Assembly (NCBI GenBank): GCA_963771175.1
Contig: CAVYSY010000038.1
Coordinates: 160,001 to 224,000 of the forward strand
Reading direction: 5' to 3'
Length of the DNA stretch: 64,000 nucleotides
Source of the DNA: an uncultured delta proteobacterium
GTDB taxonomy: Bacteria; Myxococcota; Myxococcia; Myxococcales; Myxococcaceae
A program made the position numbers and the translations under genes. Each line of letters opens with the position of its first letter. Within the stretch, counting starts at the first letter, position 1. Under the pieces are notes generated by a model, which saw nothing but the letters and a program-made list of their open reading frames with translations, was not told the origin of the DNA and made no database searches. Below are positions 52,904 to 62,495 of the stretch, piece by piece.

Positions 52904-54403
52904 TCAAGGCAGCAGGTTGGCCTTGTCGTTGATGGGCGACAGGTCGCCCGCGAAGTTGAGCAGATCCGTCATCTCGAACTCGCCCGCCTTGGCCGAGGGC
53001 AGCGTCGGCCGCCACTGCGGGTTGCTGGCCAGGAAGGAGCCGTTGTCCAGCTCGAGCATGCCCACGAAGACCTCGGACAGGATGCGGCTGCCCACGGGAC
53101 CGAGCCGCTTGCTGTCGCCGCGCTGCTCGGCCTCCTTGAGGATGTAGTACCAGAGCGGCGTCTCGACGTGCAGGCCGTGCTTCTCGGCCACCGCCCCATC
53201 GGGTCCCTTGGCGATGTCCTTGGGCGAGAGGGGCTCGATGCGCATGCGCCGCGCCACGTTCTGACCGGAGGGGAGCCCGAGGCTGCGCCCGCGCCGGAGG
53301 TTGGCGATGGGCAGGTTGACGCCGGGCAGGACCCCGTGGTCGGGAATCTCGGAGAGCGTCGGCGCGAGGAACGGGTCGAGCTTGCGGCTGAGGCCGGCCG
53401 TCACCCCATCGCCAGCGAACCGGAAGAACCGCCGCCAGTCGATGATCCAATCGCTGGGGATGGGCACGTTCTTGCCCGAGCGTCCGGAGAAGCGGAACAG
53501 GAGCTGGAGCGACGCCGGCACCCGCTTGCGAGGACTGTCCTTGAAGGTGAAGACCTCGTTGTAGTCGTACGCATCGCGCACCATGCTGTGCCCCAGGCGG
53601 TAGGCGGCGGCGGAGAACTCCACCGGGATGAAGGCATCCCCCTCCGGGAGGTAGAACGCCCGGCCCCGCTCCAGCACGTCGCCGAGCACCTTCTTGTCCA
53701 CCAACCGCGGCAGGAAGTCGTGCAGGACAATCCACTGGTAGTGCCAGATGACGAGCTTGCGCGCCTGCTCGAACAGGGTGGCCTGGGTCGCCGACGGGGG
53801 CGGCTTGAGGGTGCCGGCCTTGAGGCCCTCGACCACCTTGTTGTGGAAGCGGAGGAACGCCAGGTGGAGCTGGGCGACGATGAGGTTCTCGTCGTTGCGC
53901 GGGTCACCGATGATGGCCTGCGCCTGAGCGCCACGCGGCAGGTCGAAGGGGAGCGACGGCTTCACCTTCGGGTCGCCCGCGCCCGGGGCCGTGTTGGTGC
54001 TCCCGATGACGAAGAGCGCCTCGTTGGGAGGGAGCTGGTAGAGGTAGGGCTGATCGCCCGGTCCCCGGCCATAGACGCAGTCCAGGTCGAGTGCCGGTGT
54101 GCGGAAGTTGTGGAGCGCCAGCGGGTCGACCTGCACCTCCTGGATGGGCGTGGTGTCGAAGGTGATGTCGTGGTCGATGAACTGGCCGAGGTACGTGAAG
54201 CCCGCGGGGACGTCCTCGTTGTCACCCTTCGGGTCCGCGGGGATGGCGTCCTTCATCGCGCGGCCAAGGTCATCCAGGACCTCCACCGGCGGTAACAGCG
54301 GCTGGAGCGACGGAAAAATCCTCCCGAACTTCCCCGAGGGGACGAACTGCCCCAGCGGGGTCCCCTCCCCATTGCGAATCAAAATCCCATGAATTCCTGG
54401 CAT
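52904..54403 (-). CDS. Animal-type heme peroxidase family protein
   Basis: TYLGQFIDHDIT, GDPRNDEN, EFSAAAYRLGHSMVR, TPLWYYILKEAE, LGPVGSRI. Confidence 0.9.
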   Translation of the reverse strand: MPGIHGILIRNGEGTPLGQFVPSGKFGRIFPSLQPLLPPVEVLDDLGRAMKDAIPADPKGDNEDVPAGFTYLGQFIDHDITFDTTPIQEVQVDPLALHNFRTPALDLDCVYGRGPGDQPYLYQLPPNEALFVIGSTNTAPGAGDPKVKPSLPFDLPRGAQAQAIIGDPRNDENLIVAQLHLAFLRFHNKVVEGLKAGTLKPPPSATQATLFEQARKLVIWHYQWIVLHDFLPRLVDKKVLGDVLERGRAFYLPEGDAFIPVEFSAAAYRLGHSMVRDAYDYNEVFTFKDSPRKRVPASLQLLFRFSGRSGKNVPIPSDWIIDWRRFFRFAGDGVTAGLSRKLDPFLAPTLSEIPDHGVLPGVNLPIANLRRGRSLGLPSGQNVARRMRIEPLSPKDIAKGPDGAVAEKHGLHVETPLWYYILKEAEQRGDSKRLGPVGSRILSEVFVGMLELDNGSFLASNPQWRPTLPSAKAGEFEMTDLLNFAGDLSPINDKANLLP

Positions 54404-54604
54404 GGCTCTCCCTCGTGTAGGTGATGCATCGAGACAGACGTCACACATTGCGTCTGTGATCGCGGGCATGCCCCAGGGTGGGAAGCTCGGTGGGCTGGCA
54501 GCCACGCATCTCGAACGCGACCGCTAGATTTCAACGCGTGTAACGGGCCGCAATGCCCCGCGGGGCACCTGTCCGGAAGCACCCTCGACTCTCGGCCGGC
54601 GGGA

Positions 54605-55387
54605 CTACGTGTTGCTGGAGCCGCCGACCGCGCCGCGCCACGCCCGCCACCGCACGAGCGCGCAGCCCAGGGAGAGCCCGACGAGCGTGCCGGTGACGGT
54701 GGGCCAGAAGGCCCACCAGAGCTGCGCCTCCAACGCGCCCATGTCCTGGTAGCGCGCCAGCCGCAACGCGAGTCCCACGAAAGCCCCGGTGGCGGTGGGC
54801 AGCAGCATGCGAAGGAAGTCAGACCAGGAGCCCCCTCGCACGGGGGCCAGACTCGAATAGCGGCGCGCCATGTACCCGAGCACGATGAGCGAGCCCACGA
54901 GGGACGAGGCGTGCTGGAGGACACGGGCGAGCGGCAGCTCCCGGCTTCCGGCGAGAACACGCACCTCCGGGTAGAGGACGTCCGCGGGCCACATGCCGTG
55001 GTGGGTGAAACCATCCCAGAGGATGTGCGTGGCGGCCCCGAGCACGAGCGCCCCGGCGGCGACCCCCCAGGCGAGAGGCGTGCGCGGCAGGCCCCCGGTG
55101 CTGACGAAGCGGCCCCACTGCACACCGCCGACCTCGGGCAGGGCGAGGCGCAGCGCGGGCAGGACGAGCGCCTCCAGCCACACCAGTACCGCGAGGCCCA
55201 TGGGAACACAGAAGAGGACGAAACCGGGGACCGCATGCGAGAGGAGGCCCAGCCCTCGCACCGCGTACAAATAGGAGAGGTCGGGCGCACAGGCTCCGAC
55301 GACGAGCGCGGTGGGCAGCAACCCCCGGCGGAAGAGCCGGAAGAAGGGCAGCACCGCGGCGGCATGGGCAGGGAGGGTGACGGGCAT
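54605..55387 (-). CDS. DUF4184 family membrane protein
   Basis: MPVTLPAHAAAVLP, GACAPD, THILWDGFTH, LQHASS. Confidence 0.85.
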   Translation of the reverse strand: MPVTLPAHAAAVLPFFRLFRRGLLPTALVVGACAPDLSYLYAVRGLGLLSHAVPGFVLFCVPMGLAVLVWLEALVLPALRLALPEVGGVQWGRFVSTGGLPRTPLAWGVAAGALVLGAATHILWDGFTHHGMWPADVLYPEVRVLAGSRELPLARVLQHASSLVGSLIVLGYMARRYSSLAPVRGGSWSDFLRMLLPTATGAFVGLALRLARYQDMGALEAQLWWAFWPTVTGTLVGLSLGCALVRWRAWRGAVGGSSNT

Positions 55388-55450
55388 GGGTGTCCGCCCC
55401 CATGCGTAGTCACGATGCCGCCCGGGGCAACCCCCTCGGGTCACATCCCG

Positions 55451-58400
55451 TCAGGCCGCGTCGGCGTCCGTACGCGACACAGGGGCGGCCGAGTCGTCGG
55501 GCCTCCAGGGCCAGGCCCGCGGGGCGATGCGCGCGTAGAGCAGGAAGAGCGACTCTCCGTCGGCGTGCTCGCGACAGACGCGACTGGCCTCGCGCAGCAG
55601 CGGACCCGGCGACAGCTCCCGGCCAGACTCGCGTAGCAGGGATCGCAGCGCCTCCGGCACGGCCTCGAAGATGCCATCCTTGTTGAGCCGCCCGTCGTTG
55701 GCCTCCGCGCACGACTCCAGGTGGCGCACCAGCTCGGCCTTCAGCCGCGCGTCGTACCCGAAGACGTACGAGCACATCTGGAACAGCTCCGAGCCCGCCT
55801 CCGTCATCAGGTCCGACTGCTCGCGCGCGAAGCCCGGCTCGCCCGCGGCCCGCCACAGGCAGTCCCACCGCGACTGCGAGGCATGGCGTGCGTACAGCGC
55901 CCGCGCCGTGAGGTAGCTCTGCATCGAGTCGTGGAAGAAGCGCACGTGCGTGGGCACCGGGCCGGGCCGCGCGTCCGCCGGCACCAGCAGCCCCGCGTCC
56001 AGCAGCACCCGCAGCTTCGCCTCGTCCGGGCTGTCCCGGAAGATGATGAGCCGGCTGCGGTGCTCCCAGTAGCTGCCCAGGCACAGCGTCTCCGCGAAGG
56101 TCAGCAGCTCCGAGGTGGCCTCGTCGTCCGGGGCCTTCTTCAGCAGCCCCGCGAACACGGCACGGTAGAGGTTGATGACGCTGTCCACGTCGCTCCCGCC
56201 GAAGCGCAGCGCCAGTCGCACGAGGATGGGCACGTAGGTCGCGTCCGCCACTCGCCCCCGACAGATGCGCTTGAGTGACTCGGAGAGCGGCACGGGCTTC
56301 CCGTCGGCGCCCGGGTACGCGGCCTGGAAGCGCACCAGCCCCGCCTCGTCCAGCCGCTTCGGCTCCACCCCCATCCAGCGCAGCGAATGCTCCATCGCCG
56401 TCCGGTACGCCTCGTTGGGCCGGGCCGACAGCAGCAGCGGCGCGTGCAGCCCCATCTCGCGCTCCAGGTAGCGGCGCAGCGCCTCGGGCTCCACCCTCGA
56501 CTCGGTGAGGCCGTCCAGCACGAGGAAGAAGTCCCCCGACTCCAGCAGCGCGTCCCGCAGCGCCTCCGGCAGCCCGAGGTCCTTCAGCGATTCCTTCGCG
56601 GCGGACTCCAGGTCCTCGGCCGCCGGATCGATGAAGACGGGCAGCGGCGAGGAGGGCTGCTTCTCGAAGCGCTCCAGCGACAACCGGACGAGCTGCCGCA
56701 GCAGGGCGCTCTTCCCCCGGCCTCCCGCGCACTGGATGAGCAGGTGCGCGCGCTCGCGCGTGAGCAGCGTGGCCAGCTCCTCGGCGGTGCGCTCGGAGGG
56801 CGAGGGCGGCACCCCGGGCCCGGCGTACTCGGTGACGTGCGAGGACAGCTCCACGTACACCTCGTCGTTGGCGCGGGCCGAGGCCACCTCCACCCGGCGG
56901 CGCACCTGCCGGACATAGGAGGCGAAGAAGCGGCGCCGGAAGGCGGGCCAGCGCAGCAGCGGCGCGGCGGCCCAGGAGAACGGATGGGTGAAGACGAGCC
57001 GGCGGAACACGCTCGGAGACAGCAGCCCCAGGCCCGCGCACAGCACCAACTCGGCACCCACCACGGCCATCAGGGAGGGCACGTGGATGCGCAGGCCACC
57101 CAGCAACCCGAGCACCTCGCCGCCACCCGCGCCCACGACGGAGGCGACGTAGCCGAGGAGCGGCAACCACTTGCGGGGAGCGGCGGTGGGGCGCAGCAGC
57201 AACATGGGCAGCAGGAGCAGCAGCGTCACCGCGAGGCACGCCAGCGCGGTGCGCACCCAGACGCGGTCGAGCAGCGGCATGCCGAAGGGCACGTGCCGGA
57301 AGGTGGCGGTGAGGCGGGTGCCATTCTCCACCTCGTGCGCCAACACGGCCCGGTAGAGGCGCTCCGCGTCTCCCGGGGGCTCCGTCCACTGGAAGAGTGG
57401 GCCGGCCGGCACCCCGAGGCGCCGAAGCCCCTGCCCGGCCAGCGCGTCTCCGTCCTCCGCGCGCAACTCGAGCCGCAGCGAGCGCCCGAGCTCCGTGGCA
57501 TGTGCGAGCCCGGGCCAGTCGAGCTCCAGGGACTCCAGCGGCAGGCCCGCCTCGAGCTTGCCCGCCATGTGGACCTTTCCGCTCGCGTCGCGCTCGAGGC
57601 GGGCGCCCCCCGCGAAGCCCACGCCCATGCGCCCCACATCCGAGGCCGGTCCGTAGATGTAGCTGCGCGGCTCGCCGGCAATCCACACGCGCCCGGTGCC
57701 CTGGATGGGGAGCACGTCGCGCATCCCCGCGCCCTCGAGCACCAACTGTGCACTCGGCCCGTCTGGCGTGAGCACGAGCCGATGCAGGGCCGTGCCACCG
57801 TCCAACAGCAGCCACCCATCCTTCTCGCTCCAGGCCTTCAGCAGTGGGGCGCCAGAGCCCATCGGCAGCGGGGCGCTTGCCGTGATGGCGTTGCCCTTCA
57901 CGGACAGCAGGCGGACCTCGCCAGCCTCCGTCACCGCCCACGCGTGCTCCGCGGAGAGCGGCAGGAGCCACGCGCCGCCGAACCCCTGCGCGCTACGCGC
58001 CACCTCGTTCCCGTCATCCCCCAGGAGGTAGACGCGCCCATCGCCGATGCTCCACACGTCGCCGTCCGGCGAGCGCCACAGCGACGGTATCCCCTCCACC
58101 GCCAGCCCCGTGCCCACCGTCTTCTCATCGCGCCCCACCAGCCGCACCTCGCTCCGGGAGGACGACGCAGTCCCCCGCCAGCACGGCCCAGACCCGGTCC
58201 GCATCGCGATGGGCGAAGATGCCCCGGACGCCAGCCCCCCCGAACATCACGCGCTTGGCGCTCTTCGCTCCGTCGCGGCTGACGAGCAGGAGCTGGACGG
58301 GCATCCCGGGCTGAGCCGCGAACACCCAGATGCTCTGGGGCCGCCGGGTGGGGAGGAGGCAGCATGTCGCGCATCTCGAGCAGGCGCCGGCTGAGTGGGC

Positions 58401-59107
58401 GAGCGTTCGTCCAGGTCCACGAAGTGGAGGCCCTGGTCCAGCACCAGCCAGCCCTGGCGCCCCTCCGCCACGGGCATCACCGTGCGCGCGGTGGTCCACC
58501 AGAGGCTGGAGGTCACCTTCAAGCCTTGACCCGAAGGAGACAGCGAGACGACCTCCACCCGGCCCGTGGCATCGATGACCCGGAGCTGGGAGTCGAACTC
58601 GGACAAGGCCCAGAGCCGCTCGCGCCCCGCTGTGGGGGTGAGCGCCAGCTCGAAGGCCCCCTCGTCCAACAGGCCCCGGGCGGTGCCTTGATGGTCCACC
58701 AGGAACACCTGGCTGCGCACCTTGGCCGAAGGCGAGAACACCTGAACCTGAACCCAGGCACGCTCGGGGTCCGCCGTGGGCACCACGTGCAGGATGGCTC
58801 CGCCCGTCTTGTCGCCGAAGCTCACGGAGGTGAGCTCACGGCCCTCCGCGTCCACGAGCCTGAGCCCGACCCGACCCGGCGTCCACACCCAGGCATGGTG
58901 GCCATGCCCGCACGGCACGATCTCACTGCCTCGCGCGATGGGCTTCAGCCAGTACCCCTCGACCTCGGCCTCGACGGGTGGAGGCGGGGCCTCGCTCTGG
59001 GCACGGGCGGCCACGCTCGCGAGCAGCAGGAGCACGGCGCTCGCGAGGAGCGGCCCCTGGGGAAACAGGCTCCGCCGGAAAGACCGGGCACGGGAGGAAG
59101 TCGTCAT
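55451..59107 (-). CDS. Large signal peptide + beta-propeller-like + TM + NACHT/STAND-like NTPase protein (frameshifts ~58380 and ~58155)
   Basis: Signal peptide ending ARA-Q; repeated beta-rich units (HAWVW, RAWVQ, RLWAL, RVWAV, DVWSI, RVWIA); TM helices at ~57020-57260; Walker A CAGGRGKS, Walker B FFLVLDGLTE; FFHDSMQSYL. Confidence 0.7.
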
Positions 59108-59198
59108 GGCGAGCGGACGTCCGGGGGCAACGAGGAGCCCGGGCGCCGGTGCATTGTGGCACAGGAGCCCCCGCTTCAGAGCCCCCCCGGGCCGCGAC

Positions 59199-59658
59199 TC
59201 ACCCGCGCGTCTTGAGCAGCCGGGTAAGCTCGCGGTCGAGGCTGGCGGCGAACTGCTGGCGGTCCTGGTTGGAGAAGCCACTGGGGCCGCCGGTGTTCAC
59301 CCCGCTGTCGCGCAGCTCCTGCATGAAGTTCCGCACCGAGAGACGCTCGGAGATGTTCTCCTCGCTGAAGAGCTCCCCGCGCGGGTCGAGCACCACCACG
59401 CCCTTGGGGACGAGCAGCGCGGCGAGCGGGATGTCCTGGGTGACGGCGAGGTCCCCGGTCTGGGCCGAGGCGGCGATGTGCCGGTCCGCCACGTCGAGCC
59501 CGGAGCCCACCTGCACCGTGGAGACGAGCTCCGAGCGAGGCAGGGTGAGGCGCTTGTTGGCCACGAAGACGATGGGGACCTGCAAGCGCTGCGAGGCGCG
59601 CAGGAGGATGTCCCGCACCGGCACCCGGACACGCATCGGCGTCGATCCAGATTCGCAT
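59199..59658 (-). CDS. YaiI/YqxD (UPF0178) family protein (frameshift ~59630)
   Basis: MRIWIDADACP..FVAN..DVADRHI..VTQDIPLA..DPRGE..ENISERLSVRN. Confidence 0.9.
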
Positions 59659-59664
59659 GTGGGC

Positions 59665-60108
59665 TCAGCCCTCGGTGTTGCGCAGGAAGTCGGCGACGTC
59701 GGCGAAGCGCTTGTCGAGGAACACACGCACCGAGCCCTTCACGCCCCGGGCATCCATCGCCCGGCTCATGCTGCGCACCCAGGCATCGCGCATGGCGATG
59801 TCCACGGGAACGTGTCCGTGGCGCATGCGCAGGCGCGGGTGGCCGTGCTTCTCCATGTAGTGCTGGGGTCCGCCCAGCCAGGCGATGAGGAAGAGGCCGA
59901 AGCGCTCACGCATGCCGCGCGACACCCTGCCCTGCTCATCCAGCTCATGCAGGCGGGCGAGCGCCGGCTCGTGCGCATCCATGGCGTCATAGAAGGCCTC
60001 GGCGAGGGCTCGCACGCCCTCCTCCCCACCCAGACGGTGGAAGGGCATGTCCTCCATGGTGGGGTACCAGTCGTCATCGCTGGGAACGTTCAGCCCGATG
60101 GGCTTCAT
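59665..60108 (-). CDS. Group II truncated hemoglobin
   Basis: LGGEEGV..FYDAM, WLGGPQHY..HGHPRLRMRH, RDAW, FLRN. Confidence 0.92.
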   Translation of the reverse strand: MKPIGLNVPSDDDWYPTMEDMPFHRLGGEEGVRALAEAFYDAMDAHEPALARLHELDEQGRVSRGMRERFGLFLIAWLGGPQHYMEKHGHPRLRMRHGHVPVDIAMRDAWVRSMSRAMDARGVKGSVRVFLDKRFADVADFLRNTEG

Positions 60109-60193: not shown

Positions 60194-61086
60194 TCACGCC
60201 GCCCAGCGCTTGGGGCGCGTCTTCATCGTGGTGAGCCCCAGCGAGTCGCACAGCGCCAGGAAAGGCTCGCGAGGCACACCCGCCCAGGCGAGGTCCTCGA
60301 GGGACTCGGCCCAGGGGCACGTCCGTCACCAGCGTGGCGAGCTTGCGGTAGAGCAGCGCGTCCTCGCGGTGCTCGCGCAGGGTGGCCGCGAGCTTGTCCG
60401 CGCCGCGCGGGCGCACCGTCCAGTCGAGGCCGGGTCGTCGGGAATGGCCTCCAGGTGGCCGTAGGCGCCGAGCAGCGCCGACGCGCTCTTCTCGCCGAAG
60501 CCGGGCAGCCCCGGGATGCCGTCCGCGTCGTCGCCCACCAGCGCGAGCAGGTCCGGCACGCTCGCCGGGCGCGACGCCGCGCTGCGCGCGCACCGCGTCC
60601 TCGTCGAGCACCTTCTCGCTGCCTGCGGTCCACCTGCACCACGCGCTCGCCCGCGCACGCACTGCCCGAGGTCCTTGTCCGGCGTGAGGATCCGCACCTG
60701 CTCGACCTGGCCCGGCCCAGCGCGCGGCGGCGGTGGCCAGCGCGTCGTCGGCCTCGTAGCTCCTTCATCGACCAGACCGTGACGCCCGAGCGCGCGCACC
60801 GCCTCCTCGACCAGGTCGAACTGCGCGAGCAGCTCGGGCGGCACGCCCTCGTCGGTCTTGTAGCCGGCGAAGAGGTCGTTGCGGAACGAGCGGATGGGGT
60901 TGTCGAAGGCGACGCGCGACGTGGCGTCACCGCCTCCGTCGGCGTCGTGCAGCAGCGCGAGCAGCGAGCGACACGAGCCCCACCGTGGCCTTCACGTCCC
61001 GACCGTCCGGCGCGGTGTGAGCCGGGGCGGGGCGAGAAGTGGGCGCGGAAGAGCTCGTAGGTACCGTCGACGAGGTGCAGGCGCAT
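60194..61086 (-). CDS. 5'-3' exonuclease / flap endonuclease (many apparent frameshifts)
   Basis: MRLHLVDGTYELFRAHF, SFRNDLFAGYK (read from DNA), TPDKDLGQCV, LALVGDDADGIPGLPGFGEKSA. Confidence 0.85.
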
Positions 61087-61101
61087 GGGGCCCTGTCTAA
61101 C

Positions 61102-61569
61102 TCAATTCCGGCGGTAGCGGACCACGGTGACCTCGATGTCCGCGCCCTCCGCCTCCAGCGAGGACACCATCACCGCGAGCGCCCGCGCCTCGTCGAAGCC
61201 ACCGCTGCCCGAGCCGATGACGGGAAACGCCACGGAGCGGAAGCCGTGCTCCCGCGCCCGCGCGAGCGCATTGGCCACCGAGTCCCGGATGGAGCGCTCG
61301 GACGAGCGCCAGAGCATGTTGATGCCGGCCACGTGGATGATGCCCTGGTAGGGCAGCCGGCCCGCGGAGGTGACCACCGCCGAGCCGAGTGGCATCGGCC
61401 CCACGCGCGCCAGCTCGCGGAAGGGCTGGAGCCCGCCCCGCTTCTTGATGGCACCCGATACGCCCTGCGGCAGCAACAACCACCACGGGATGATGTTCCG
61501 GTTCCAGGCGTTGACGATGGCGTCGACCCGCTGCTCCAGCAGGTCTCCCTCGACGATGTGCGGCGTCAT
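61102..61569 (-). CDS. Macro domain (ADP-ribose binding/hydrolase) protein
   Basis: VEGDLL..VDAIVNAWN..GVSGAI..IIHVAG..SVAFPVIGSGSGG. Confidence 0.9.
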   Translation of the reverse strand: MTPHIVEGDLLEQRVDAIVNAWNRNIIPWWLLLPQGVSGAIKKRGGLQPFRELARVGPMPLGSAVVTSAGRLPYQGIIHVAGINMLWRSSERSIRDSVANALARAREHGFRSVAFPVIGSGSGGFDEARALAVMVSSLEAEGADIEVTVVRYRRN

Positions 61570-61706
61570 GGTGGGCTCCAACCTCCACCAGTCAACGCGA
61601 GCGGCGAGGACCTGTCGAGCCTCCCTCCTTGACTGGGCGAGTGGCACCTGGGCCCTCGACCGGCGGTAGCAGGCTCCTCGCGCATGGAAGCTTGTAGAGT
61701 GCGCCC

Positions 61707-62495
61707 ATGCGCCCACTGCTCATCCTGACGGCCCTGCTCGCCGCGACGTCCTCGGTAGCCCAGTCCGCGCCCGAGGCGCCCAAGTCCATGCTCCTCGTCT
61801 GGGGCGGAGGCAAGACGCCCCAGGAGGCCGAGGCCGCCGCGAAGGACTACCGCGAGCGCGCCGGCGACTGGAAACAGGTGCTGACGCTCGCCGAGGGCTA
61901 CCCGCGCATCCTCGAGAGCGACACCGTCCCCGGCCTCAAGCCCGGCTTCCACGTGGTGGTGCTCGGCGTGTGCGAGCCCAAGGAGGGCGCCACCCTCGAG
62001 GCCGCCTTCGACGCCCTGGAGCCCCGCACCTACAGCCGCGAGGTGTCCTGGCCCGAGAAGGGCAAGCTGCCCTGCCCGCAGCTCGCCTATTACTGGTCCT
62101 TCGAGAACTCGGTGCGGGCCAAGAGCAAGCAGGGCGACCTCCTCGCCGCCTTCTTCAGCGCCTCCGAAGCCGAGGGCGACTTCGAGATGCACGGCTGGCA
62201 CGTGGTGTTCACCGCGTTCGACAAGCAGGGCAAGCGGCTCGGCACGCGCACGGAGTCCTCCGGCACCACGTACTCCGACCTCCAGCAACTGGAGGCCAAG
62301 GGGGCCCGGCTGCTGATGAAGGAGCGCAAGCTGGACCCGCCATGCCATGGCGCGCCGAGCTTCGAGGTGGTCGAGCGCACCTGGAGCGCGCGCCTCGACG
62401 GGGAGGCCATCGTCATCGACAGCGGCACCACGAAGAGCGTGGAGTCGGGCTCCTGCTCGTACCCGGAGCTCGGGGCTCCCCCCGAGGGAGACTGA
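61707..62495 (+). CDS. Secreted hypothetical protein
   Basis: Signal peptide; VWGGGKT..GLKPGFHVVVLGVC. Confidence 0.7.
   Translation: MRPLLILTALLAATSSVAQSAPEAPKSMLLVWGGGKTPQEAEAAAKDYRERAGDWKQVLTLAEGYPRILESDTVPGLKPGFHVVVLGVCEPKEGATLEAAFDALEPRTYSREVSWPEKGKLPCPQLAYYWSFENSVRAKSKQGDLLAAFFSASEAEGDFEMHGWHVVFTAFDKQGKRLGTRTESSGTTYSDLQQLEAKGARLLMKERKLDPPCHGAPSFEVVERTWSARLDGEAIVIDSGTTKSVESGSCSYPELGAPPEGD

What the first reader, a model, noticed from the sequence alone, without database searches (positions are those of the whole stretch)
55451..59107. Receptor-like NLR: exported beta-propeller, TM bundle and cytoplasmic NACHT/STAND NTPase in one ~1200-aa protein
Seen: three consecutive minus-strand ORF pieces (58247..59281, 58125..58499, 55451..58204) join through about two indels into one protein. 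It has a signal peptide, a long region of repeated Trp-centred beta units, several hydrophobic helices (~57020-57260), then Walker A (AGGRGKS, ~56708-56731), a NACHT-style Walker B (FFLVLDGLTE) and an FFHDSMQSYL winged-helix signature, plus a short helical tail. Established: NACHT/STAND NTPases are NLR-like switches, and the usual layout is effector-NTPase-sensor, all cytoplasmic. Inference: here the sensor propeller lies outside the membrane and N-terminal to the NTPase, suggesting a transmembrane surveillance receptor for phage, competitor or self cues with no recognisable effector domain.
Basis: partly seen in the sequence, partly recalled or inferred. Interest (0 to 1): 0.75.

Follow-up and report, generated by a model that had tools for sequence, protein, structure and literature searches.

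The report
Membrane-spanning NLR-like receptor, sensor outside
This myxobacterial gene encodes a roughly 1,200-residue inner-membrane protein with an exported repeat domain outside and an NLR-type (NACHT-like) ATP switch inside, belonging to a small unstudied family that swaps its outer sensor; the breaks in this copy are probably assembly errors.

Summary
The minus-strand pieces join into one gene (55451-59107), collinear with intact 1,208-1,240-aa orthologues. It is broken by three single extra bases, not two indels. Near-identical public DNA lacks all three, and neighbouring genes are also frame-broken, so they are probably assembly errors.

Layout: signal peptide, ten Trp-anchored ~45-aa repeats, a unique membrane-proximal segment, three hydrophobic helices, a basic linker, a P-loop/helical/winged-helix module and a conserved ~145-aa tail.

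The module matches Pfam-certified NACHT proteins profile-to-profile (98.5%, E 2e-15) far better than NB-ARC (13%). Pfam's NACHT model and PADLOC miss it, and its Walker B reads DGh[T/S]E rather than D[GAS]hDE. I therefore call it NACHT-like.

About 250 50%-identity clusters share the TM-NTPase-tail chassis at the C-terminus. The N-terminal part is exchanged between beta repeats, HEAT repeats and periplasmic-binding-protein domains, each behind a signal peptide. It also evolves faster (dN/dS 0.58 against 0.21).

This supports an outside-in receptor. Output and biological role are unknown, and no partner gene is shared family-wide. This scan had already flagged similar designs in Nostoc.

The parts
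55451..59107 (-). Whole gene (about 1,215 codons once the three extra bases are discounted): signal peptide, repeat ectodomain, TM bundle, NACHT-like NTPase, tail
   Evidence: ORF pieces; frame plot; collinear with intact orthologues
59000..59107 (-). Signal peptide: basic N-region, Leu-rich core, Ala-x-Ala-type end. Most orthologues carry a lipobox-like Cys here instead.
   Evidence: Translation; orthologue alignment; hydropathy peak; family heuristic: 97 of 138 full-length proteins have a signal-like start
57641..58999 (-). Exported repeat region: ten ~45-aa units, each anchored on a conserved Trp. The fold is unverified. Borders are approximate.
   Evidence: hhalign self-comparison prob 86-96%; conserved Trp spacing 39-57 aa; dN/dS 0.58
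58170..58396 (-). Stretch holding three single extra bases (near 58396, 58358, 58170; the last beside a run of five G) that break the frame in this assembly
   Evidence: Three-frame reading against orthologues; public contigs X1 (all three places) and X2 (the two it covers) lack one letter at each place
57251..57640 (-). Membrane-proximal, non-repeat part of the ectodomain (about 105-130 aa), no family assigned. Borders are approximate.
   Evidence: No internal repeat match for the last ~105 aa; no Pfam hit
57002..57250 (-). TM bundle: TM1 57191-57250, Gly-rich TM2 57092-57154, TM3 57002-57067
   Evidence: Kyte-Doolittle peaks; over 58 relatives loop 1 is net +2.0, loop 2 is 8 aa, and the 48 aa after TM3 are net +4.9
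56777..57001 (-). Arg-rich juxtamembrane linker between TM3 and the NTPase
   Evidence: Sequence and conservation line
55895..56776 (-). NACHT-like STAND module. Walker A 56708-56731, Walker B 56501-56530, sensor-1 Arg-Pro 56417-56437, winged-helix His/Ser motif 55904-55945.
   Evidence: hhalign against 26 Pfam-certified NACHT proteins: 98.5%, E 2.4e-15, query 188-481; motif counts over 58 sequences
55454..55894 (-). Conserved C-terminal tail (~145 aa), no family assigned. Candidate output or adaptor part.
   Evidence: Conservation; no Pfam or NCBIfam hit
54605..55444 (-). Downstream same-strand gene: DUF4184 / zinc-dependent phospholipase-C-like membrane protein. Possible operon partner in this lineage only.
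   Evidence: Pfam DUF4184 E 2.9e-35, Zn_dep_PLPC E 1.4e-11; present downstream in 12 of 14 orthologue loci and 0 of 10 paralogue or distant loci; no terminator-like site between the genes

Best explanation
The gene encodes a single-chain inner-membrane receptor. The signal peptide exports a ~560-aa repeat domain into the periplasm. Three helices cross the membrane (out-in, in-out, out-in). A basic linker then leads to a divergent NACHT-like STAND NTPase with its winged helix, followed by a conserved ~145-aa tail, all in the cytoplasm.

Inferred mechanism: a ligand bound outside changes the packing of the TM bundle and linker. This releases the NTPase from its closed, ADP-type state. Nucleotide exchange then drives self-association at the membrane, and the conserved tail (or the clustered TM bundle) delivers the output. 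The sensor is a plug-in part: relatives carry beta repeats, HEAT repeats or a periplasmic-binding-protein domain on the same chassis.

Shown here: the gene is one unit, the domain order, the NACHT-like kinship, sensor swapping, and faster sensor evolution. Inferred: the topology (from rules, not experiment), the direction of signalling, oligomerisation, and the output. The three frame breaks in the window are most likely assembly errors (about 0.8).
For: One gene:
- Intact frames in 15 of 17 congeners, collinear with the window's pieces.

Family:
- phmmer of the TM-NTPase-tail part against 1.84 billion representatives gives 246 hits at E<=1e-3 and 213 at E<=1e-10. Nearly all place the module at the C-terminal end of 1,000-1,400-aa proteins.
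- 198 of 222 stored relatives have hydrophobic peaks 60-220 aa before the Walker A. 167 of those have at least 300 aa ahead of the first helix.

Topology:
- Net charge is +2.0 in loop 1 and +4.9 after TM3, against +0.2 before TM1.
- Signal-like N-termini occur in 97 of 138 full-length proteins.
- The Peripla_BP_6 domains follow a clear signal peptide in P0132 (its N-terminus was read; those of P0173 and P0206 were not inspected), at E 1.5e-27 and E 2.3e-21 and 1.5e-24.
- The two HEAT members whose N-termini were read also start with signal peptides.

Sensor swapping:
- Of 172 relatives with a long N-part, 107 are beta-repeat type, 21 HEAT, 3 PBP (1 labelled, 2 more found) and 41 unassigned.
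- On the tree of 169 C-modules, HEAT is one clade (SH-aLRT 99) nested among beta types, and the PBP trio is one clade (99).

Sensor evolves faster:
- Pairwise identity is 0.67 against 0.87-0.94.
- dN/dS is 0.58 against 0.21-0.22 over 28 pairs.

NACHT-like:
- hhalign gives 98.5% to NACHT through the winged helix, against 13.4% to NB-ARC.
- Over 58 sequences, Walker A Lys, Walker B Asp and the sensor-1 Arg are each 58/58, and the winged-helix His is 57/58.
- One relative passes Pfam's NACHT cut-off (27.9 against 26.7 bits).

Breaks are artefacts:
- Contig X1 (98.3% identical, depth 31.6) lacks one base at each of the three places. X2 lacks one at the two it covers.
- The YaiI-like and FEN-like neighbours are also frame-broken relative to their orthologues.
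Against: - No structure could be predicted, so the propeller, the three-helix bundle and the NBD-HD-WHD fold rest on sequence alone.
- TM2 is Gly-rich and only marginally hydrophobic (mean KD 0.89). With two crossings the NTPase would lie outside, which the charges and the need for NTP argue against but do not exclude.
- The usual STAND order is effector-NTPase-sensor, so the tail could be the sensor.
- The NACHT Walker B signature is not fully met (T/S in 51 of 58 where an acidic residue is expected).
- Pfam's NACHT model does not reach E<=1 on the window's protein and its scan of G000 at E<=0.001 finds three other genes but not this one. Profile searches of PDB sequences find nothing.
- No output domain and no partner gene shared family-wide.
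- No PADLOC hit.
- 41 of 138 full-length relatives lack a signal-like start by my heuristic.
- Whole-domain dN/dS below 1 shows relaxed constraint, not proven diversifying selection. NG86 is crude at 72% G+C.
Confidence: 0.55

Rival explanations
1. Canonical STAND logic with the membrane as target. The conserved C-terminal tail senses a cytoplasmic cue (as the short C-terminal extension of bNACHT01-type proteins is proposed to do). The N-terminal TM bundle with its ectodomain is the effector, damaging the membrane or envelope after oligomerisation.
For: The usual order is effector-NTPase-sensor, and bacterial NACHT proteins with short C-terminal sensors and with TM regions are described (Kibby et al. 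bioRxiv, supplementary discussion read). No enzymatic effector is present.
Against: The N-terminal parts are of binding or sensor type (HEAT, periplasmic-binding-protein, repeats). They are the exchanged and faster-evolving part. The tail is among the most conserved regions. In bNACHT01 relatives it is the sensor that diversifies (passage seen).
Confidence: 0.15
2. Inside-out device. The cytoplasmic NTPase uses NTP to set the conformation, clustering or assembly of the periplasmic domain (adhesion, envelope assembly or scaffold), rather than reporting an outside signal inward.
For: There is no output domain or partner shared family-wide. A weak FG-GAP hit occurs in one relative.
Against: STAND/NACHT modules are known as switches, not motors (Kibby text). 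A periplasmic-binding-protein domain is a ligand sensor. The patchy distribution and paralogue expansion (up to 3 per genome) do not suit a core assembly factor.
Confidence: 0.12
3. The window's copy is a true pseudogene: the three insertions are real mutations in this organism.
For: The assembly as given carries them. The public contigs that lack them are 98.3% identical, not identical, so they may come from another strain.
Against: The three changes lie within 230 bases while the other 3.4 kb keeps a perfect frame and a codon signal of 0.9-1.0 third-position G+C. Two neighbouring conserved genes are frame-broken as well. The genome is an 82%-complete, 58-contig assembly.
Confidence: 0.18

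Closest known systems
Bacterial NACHT (bNACHT) NLR-related proteins (Kibby et al., bioRxiv 10.1101/2022.07.19.500537; passages and supplementary discussion read)
   Same: P-loop, helical and winged-helix module. Walker A, small residue after the Walker B Asp, sensor-1 Arg, and conserved His and Ser in the winged helix. Profile-profile match of 98.5% to certified NACHT proteins. Single-gene systems with repeat-type sensors (HEAT, beta-propellers).
   Different: The sensor is N-terminal and exported. Three TM helices lie between sensor and NTPase, and there is no N-terminal effector. Walker B reads DGh[T/S]E. Pfam NACHT and all PADLOC models miss it. That paper's 'TM regions' class is C-terminal, with only a remark that some may sense intramembrane or periplasmic signals.
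Transmembrane receptors with periplasmic sensors (sensor histidine kinases, hybrid two-component systems, ANF-receptor-type cyclases); general knowledge, recalled
   Same: Signal peptide or anchor, periplasmic ligand-binding domain (including the Peripla_BP_6/ANF_receptor type found in three relatives), TM segment, cytoplasmic output module. Sensors are exchanged on a constant chassis.
   Different: The cytoplasmic module is a STAND NTPase, not a kinase, cyclase or methyl-accepting domain. No response-regulator-like partner is encoded nearby.
Earlier notes of this scan: Nostoc HEAT-TM-NACHT proteins (e1-2695049, e1-2696572) and a TM beta-propeller sensor with a STAND NTPase (e1-3528578)
   Same: The same design idea: outside repeat sensor, membrane crossing, NLR-type switch inside.
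   Different: They are described with one membrane helix, and lie in other phyla. Word look-ups with my sequences found no shared stretches. Whether they belong to this family was not tested.
KAP NTPases (Aravind et al. 2004, Genome Biology; reference seen, content recalled)
   Same: P-loop NTPases combined with TM helices.
   Different: In KAP the TM helices are inserted inside the NTPase domain. Here they lie about 110 aa upstream of Walker A.
Oyster extracellular domain-TM-DED-TRADD-N proteins with STAND NTPases (Kaur et al. 2021, PMC8195603; passage seen)
   Same: Extracellular domain, TM helix and intracellular apoptosis/immunity-type modules including STAND NTPases in one chain.
   Different: Animal lineage-specific expansion with Death-fold adaptors. 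No sequence relation was tested.

Membership tests
NACHT clade of STAND NTPases | Walker A P-loop (GxxGxGK[ST]) | tested here: met
   Gly-Gly-x-Gly-Lys-Ser: the Gly two before Lys 58/58, Lys 58/58, Ser 58/58
NACHT clade of STAND NTPases | D[GAS]hDE Walker B signature (as defined in Kibby et al.; passage) | tested here: not met
   Asp 58/58, Gly 55/58, hydrophobic, then Thr 37 or Ser 14 of 58 instead of an acidic residue, then Glu 56/58. Only one of the two acidic residues is kept.
NACHT clade of STAND NTPases | Winged-helix extension with conserved His and Ser/Thr | tested here: met
   His 57/58, Ser 56/58, Gln 58/58. hhalign aligns the motif with the corresponding motif of certified NACHT proteins. 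The fold itself was not modelled.
NACHT clade of STAND NTPases | Pfam PF05729 at its gathering score | tested here: not met
   No hit on the window's protein or in the genome-wide scan, which finds three other genes. Among 92 relatives scanned, 1 passes (P0173, 27.9 against 26.7 bits) and 5 are just below. One search listed only E<=1e-5.
NACHT clade of STAND NTPases | Profile-profile kinship to certified members, closer than to another STAND clade | tested here: met
   To NACHT: 98.5%, E 2.4e-15, 276 columns. To NB-ARC: 13.4%, E 2e-3. NACHT to NB-ARC control: 93.9%. The NB-ARC profile has only 7 sequences.
Beta-propeller | Repeated ~40-50-aa blades | tested here: met
   Ten Trp-anchored repeats
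Beta-propeller | Closed propeller fold | not testable with these tools
Pfam finds nothing consistent. Atlas leads score 0.81. One relative has a sub-threshold Sortilin-Vps10 hit.
Exported / transmembrane receptor topology (N-out, C-in) | Signal peptide, odd number of crossings, positive-inside charge pattern | tested here: inconclusive
   Signal-like start and three hydrophobic segments with fitting charges; periplasmic-binding-protein domains in three relatives. TM2 is marginal, and no SignalP, DeepTMHMM or experiment was available.
Known anti-phage defence systems (PADLOC-DB 2.0) | Match to a defence protein model or defence-island context | tested here: not met
   No model hits the protein. 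Among 9 window neighbours only a Macro gene resembles DarG's macro domain. 2 of 9 distant loci lie beside RM or Abi-type genes. No relative on phage, viral or plasmid records.

The most novel reading that the evidence does not exclude
Bacteria possess a family of true transmembrane NLR-like receptors. A constant TM-NACHT-like-tail chassis reads the periplasm through interchangeable sensors (beta repeats, HEAT, periplasmic-binding-protein) and answers by NTP-driven assembly at the inner membrane. This would be a prokaryotic merger of outside sensing (Toll-like logic) with the NLR switch, used for envelope surveillance against phage, predators or non-kin.
Probability: 0.4. Interest if true: 0.8.

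Novelty: new variant of a known kind. Interest (0 to 1): 0.62.

Why it matters
STAND/NLR proteins are treated as cytosolic sensors in bacteria, plants and animals. A conserved family in which the repeat sensor lies outside the cytoplasmic membrane and is swapped like a cartridge would add a new way of signalling across the bacterial membrane, with an NTP-gated oligomerising switch in place of a kinase. It would also extend NLR-type sensing to the cell envelope.

The periplasmic-binding-protein members make this directly testable, because their ligands can be screened.

In the papers I searched, I found no description of this layout:
- Kibby et al. preprint: passages and supplementary discussion.
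- Kaur et al. 2020 and 2021: passages.
- Nature 2026, PMC13581612: term search of the main text and of its 7 held supplement files.
- Library searches.

The closest remark is that TM-type sensors may read periplasmic signals. Table S1 of Kibby et al., which may list these proteins, could not be seen.

Tried and rejected
- **AlphaFold.** Jobs on the C-part and the ectodomain were interrupted. No fold search was therefore possible.
- **Complex prediction.** A job for two copies of the cytoplasmic part was not available.
- **PDB sequence-profile searches.** Only P-loop-level noise: TrwB E 0.21 and a helicase E 0.27.
- **Pfam and NCBIfam on the window pieces.** Nothing found.
- **Pfam on 15 ectodomains at E<=1.** Nothing consistent.
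- **Crude frame-switch count over the whole window.** It confounds gene borders with frameshifts, so I dropped it in favour of direct comparison with orthologues.
- **Noisy tblastn at word size 2.** Replaced by three-frame reading.
- **Amino-acid composition as a beta/helix proxy.** Uninformative at 72% G+C.
- **Tat export.** The twin Arg is not conserved among orthologues, so I rejected it.
- **Split-gene hypothesis.** Rejected.
- **Shared partner gene across the family.** None found in 9 distant loci. DUF4184 is linked only in the orthologue group.
- **Mobile-element carriage.** No relative on IMG/VR contigs (pattern-based search), PLSDB plasmids or INPHARED phages.
- **Supplement look-up of five accessions and 'Archangium' in PMC13581612.** No occurrence; the held files may be cut.
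- **PMC10294775.** This id was recalled from memory and is not held.
Full report
**What is in the window**

A plot of third-position G+C shows one coding signal running from about 59100 to 55450. It leaves its frame near 58430 and returns near 58190.

The first and last pieces are in the same frame. Reading all three frames against orthologues shows three frame changes, not two. Each is a step of one extra base. A short stretch between the first two is read in the third frame.

**Is it one gene?**

A six-frame search of 40 related genomes plus the window's own genome found an uninterrupted frame in 15 of the 17 other genomes of the same genus, at 76-85% identity. One further genome holds a 41% relative and one holds none. 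The 24 genomes from other genera of the family and order had no match. The window's own genome holds a single copy.

Eight full-length orthologues of 1,208-1,240 aa were extracted and aligned. The window's pieces lie on them in order and without overlap.

**Are the breaks real?**

A public contig of run X1 is 9.3 kb long at depth 31.6, with 20 differences over 1,201 bases. It lacks exactly one letter at 58170, 58358 and 58396. A rhizosphere contig (X2) lacks the letter at the two places it covers.

The genome is an 82%-complete assembly in 58 contigs. Two conserved neighbours, a YaiI-like and a FEN-like gene, are also frame-broken relative to their orthologues.

I therefore take the three extra bases as assembly errors (about 0.8). 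A strain-specific pseudogene remains possible, because the two contigs are not identical to the window.

**Anatomy**

- **Signal peptide.** Basic start, Leu-rich core and an Ala-x-Ala-type end. Most orthologues have a lipobox-like Cys at this point.
- **Repeat region.** About 455 aa follow, made of ten units, each anchored on a conserved Trp spaced 39-57 aa apart. Profile self-comparison gives 86-96% probability between units.
- **Membrane-proximal segment.** The last ~105 aa before the membrane do not repeat.
- **TM bundle.** Three hydrophobic segments follow. TM1 and TM3 are strong. TM2 is Gly-rich and marginal.
- **Charge pattern.** Over 58 relatives the short loop after TM1 carries net +2.0. 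The 48 aa after TM3 carry +4.9, and the stretch before TM1 carries +0.2. This fits N-out, C-in with three crossings.
- **Cytoplasmic part.** An Arg-rich linker leads to the P-loop module and a ~145-aa conserved tail.

**What kind of NTPase?**

Standard searches do not recognise the module:
- Pfam and NCBIfam find nothing on the window's protein.
- Pfam's NACHT model, scanned over the genome, finds three other genes but not this one.
- Two profile searches of PDB sequences give only P-loop noise.
- PADLOC gives nothing.

I then built a profile of 26 proteins that all carry Pfam NACHT, seeded from the genome's own NACHT gene. hhalign against the family profile gave 98.5% probability and E 2.4e-15 over 276 columns. 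The alignment runs from before Walker A through Walker B and sensor 1 to the winged-helix motif.

As a control I compared a profile of seven NB-ARC modules from the same bacterial family. It gave 13.4% against this family but 93.9% against the NACHT profile. The NB-ARC profile is shallow, so the contrast is indicative rather than exact.

Motif counts over 58 relatives:
- Walker A Lys 58/58.
- Walker B Asp 58/58, followed by Gly 55/58.
- Sensor-1 Arg 58/58 and Pro 53/58.
- Winged-helix His 57/58 and Ser 56/58.

The NACHT signature D[GAS]hDE, as quoted in Kibby et al. (passage seen), is only half met. The first acidic position is Thr or Ser in 51 of 58.

Among 92 relatives scanned with Pfam, one passes the NACHT cut-off and five fall just below it. 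Language-model look-alikes are nSTAND3, NPHP3_N, NACHT and nSTAND4 clusters; these are leads only.

I therefore call the module a divergent NACHT-like STAND module and do not file it as a plain NACHT member.

**The family**

A word-indexed search gave 92 relatives of 670-2,134 aa. An exhaustive phmmer of the TM-NTPase-tail part against 1.84 billion representatives gave 246 hits at E<=1e-3, 213 at E<=1e-10 and 154 at E<=1e-30. The module sits almost always at the C-terminal end of 1,000-1,400-aa proteins.

Of the 222 stored relatives, 198 have hydrophobic peaks 60-220 aa before a Walker A. The other 24 are 244-571-aa pieces plus one odd case. 167 have at least 300 aa ahead of the first helix.

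Short forms are mostly fragments. Of 15 hits under 670 aa, 14 lie on contigs of 3.9 kb or less. The one locus that looked split has NN at the junction.

**The outer part is exchanged**

Local HMMs sorted the 172 relatives with a long N-part into 107 beta-repeat, 21 HEAT, 1 periplasmic-binding-protein and 43 unassigned. Pfam then showed two of the unassigned to be Peripla_BP_6/ANF_receptor as well. One further unassigned relative gave a sub-threshold Sortilin-Vps10 hit.

hhalign suggests that 4 more of the unassigned are beta-type at 90% or above, and 8 more at 50-90%. All HEAT and PBP rows scored under 1%, which serves as a control.

The one PBP member and the two HEAT members whose N-termini I read start with clear signal peptides. 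By my heuristic, 97 of 138 full-length relatives do.

On a quick maximum-likelihood tree of 169 C-modules (midpoint root; several long branches flagged), the HEAT forms are one clade with support 99, nested among beta forms. The three PBP forms are one clade, also with support 99.

Among eight orthologues the ectodomain is 67% identical on average, against 87-94% for the TM and cytoplasmic parts. Its dN/dS is 0.58 against 0.21-0.22 over 28 pairs.

**Context and distribution**

In a sample of 301 genomes of the phylum, 13 have the module. All 13 are in one family and in 4 of 136 genera, with up to three copies per genome.

Species-representative genomes add Thermoanaerobaculia, other Acidobacteriota, Armatimonadia, Pirellulaceae and Phycisphaerales. 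Mucilaginibacter was already among the hits.

No neighbour is shared across nine distant loci. Two of these loci lie beside an Eco57I-type methylase, or beside AbiEi and NERD genes.

In the orthologue group a DUF4184 / zinc-phospholipase-C-like membrane gene follows on the same strand in 12 of 14 loci. In 9 of those it lies within about 200 bases. It is present in none of the 10 other loci. No terminator-like site lies between the two genes in the window.

The window neighbours give no PADLOC hit except a Macro gene that resembles DarG's macro domain. No relative was found on viral contigs, plasmids or phages.

**Reading**

The data fit a receptor that senses in the periplasm and switches a NACHT-like NTPase in the cytoplasm. 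The exchanged, faster-evolving, binding-type domains lie outside. The conserved chassis lies inside.

Oligomerisation and the output are inferred from what STAND proteins do. Neither was tested here. The output could be the tail acting as an adaptor, the clustered helices, or in this lineage the DUF4184 neighbour.

The main rival keeps the canonical order, with the tail as sensor and the membrane part as effector. It is less likely because the tail is conserved and the outer part is of sensor type.

A defence role is possible but has little direct support.

**Compared with what is known**

Kibby et al. list TM regions among C-terminal sensor types. They remark that some may read intramembrane or periplasmic signals. 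They do not describe an N-terminal exported sensor.

The 2026 survey of 589 STAND clades does not use the words periplasm, extracellular or signal peptide in its main text. Five accessions of this family are not in its held supplement files.

This scan has already noted HEAT-TM-NACHT proteins in Nostoc and a TM propeller-STAND pair elsewhere. The design is therefore not a one-off. Kinship with those was not tested.

**Limits**

There is no structure model, no dedicated signal-peptide or topology predictor, and no expression data. Supplements of the Kibby preprint are closed.

Noticed in passing
window 59176-59726 (-): The YaiI/UPF0178-like gene is frame-broken just after its conserved N-terminal motif, compared with the intact orthologue in G004. 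This points to an indel-prone assembly.
   Followed up: partly
window 60197-61089 (-): A FEN-like 5'-3' exonuclease gene matches its 298-aa orthologue in three different frames, so it has several frame breaks.
   Followed up: partly
window 54605-55444 (-): A DUF4184 membrane protein with similarity to zinc-dependent phospholipase C lies directly downstream of the receptor gene. The linkage is kept in 12 of 14 Archangium/Cystobacter orthologue loci but in none of 10 paralogue or distant loci.
   Followed up: partly
window 52904-54505 (-): Animal-haem-peroxidase-family gene (Pfam E 2.3e-23), also kept beside the locus in one relative (L019).
   Followed up: no
P0086 (metagenome protein, 1,679 aa): A HEAT-type family member carries a second, C-terminal STAND module (NACHT, nSTAND1 and AAA_22 above cut-off, residues 1319-1522). 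This gives two STAND NTPases in one chain.
   Followed up: no
L033, L034, L036 (paralogue loci in Cystobacter, Hyalangium, Archangium): The paralogous receptor genes have lower third-position G+C (0.72-0.82) than most neighbours (about 0.9), a hint of recent transfer or weak codon adaptation.
   Followed up: no
window 61102-61716 (-): Macro-domain gene with a weak match to the macro domain of the DarG antitoxin model (PADLOC E 3e-6). No DarT-like partner was looked for.
   Followed up: no
L037 and L041: The family copy in one Cystobacter fuscus assembly and in one Acidobacteriota MAG is spread over several frames. These are either further assembly indels or decayed copies.
   Followed up: no
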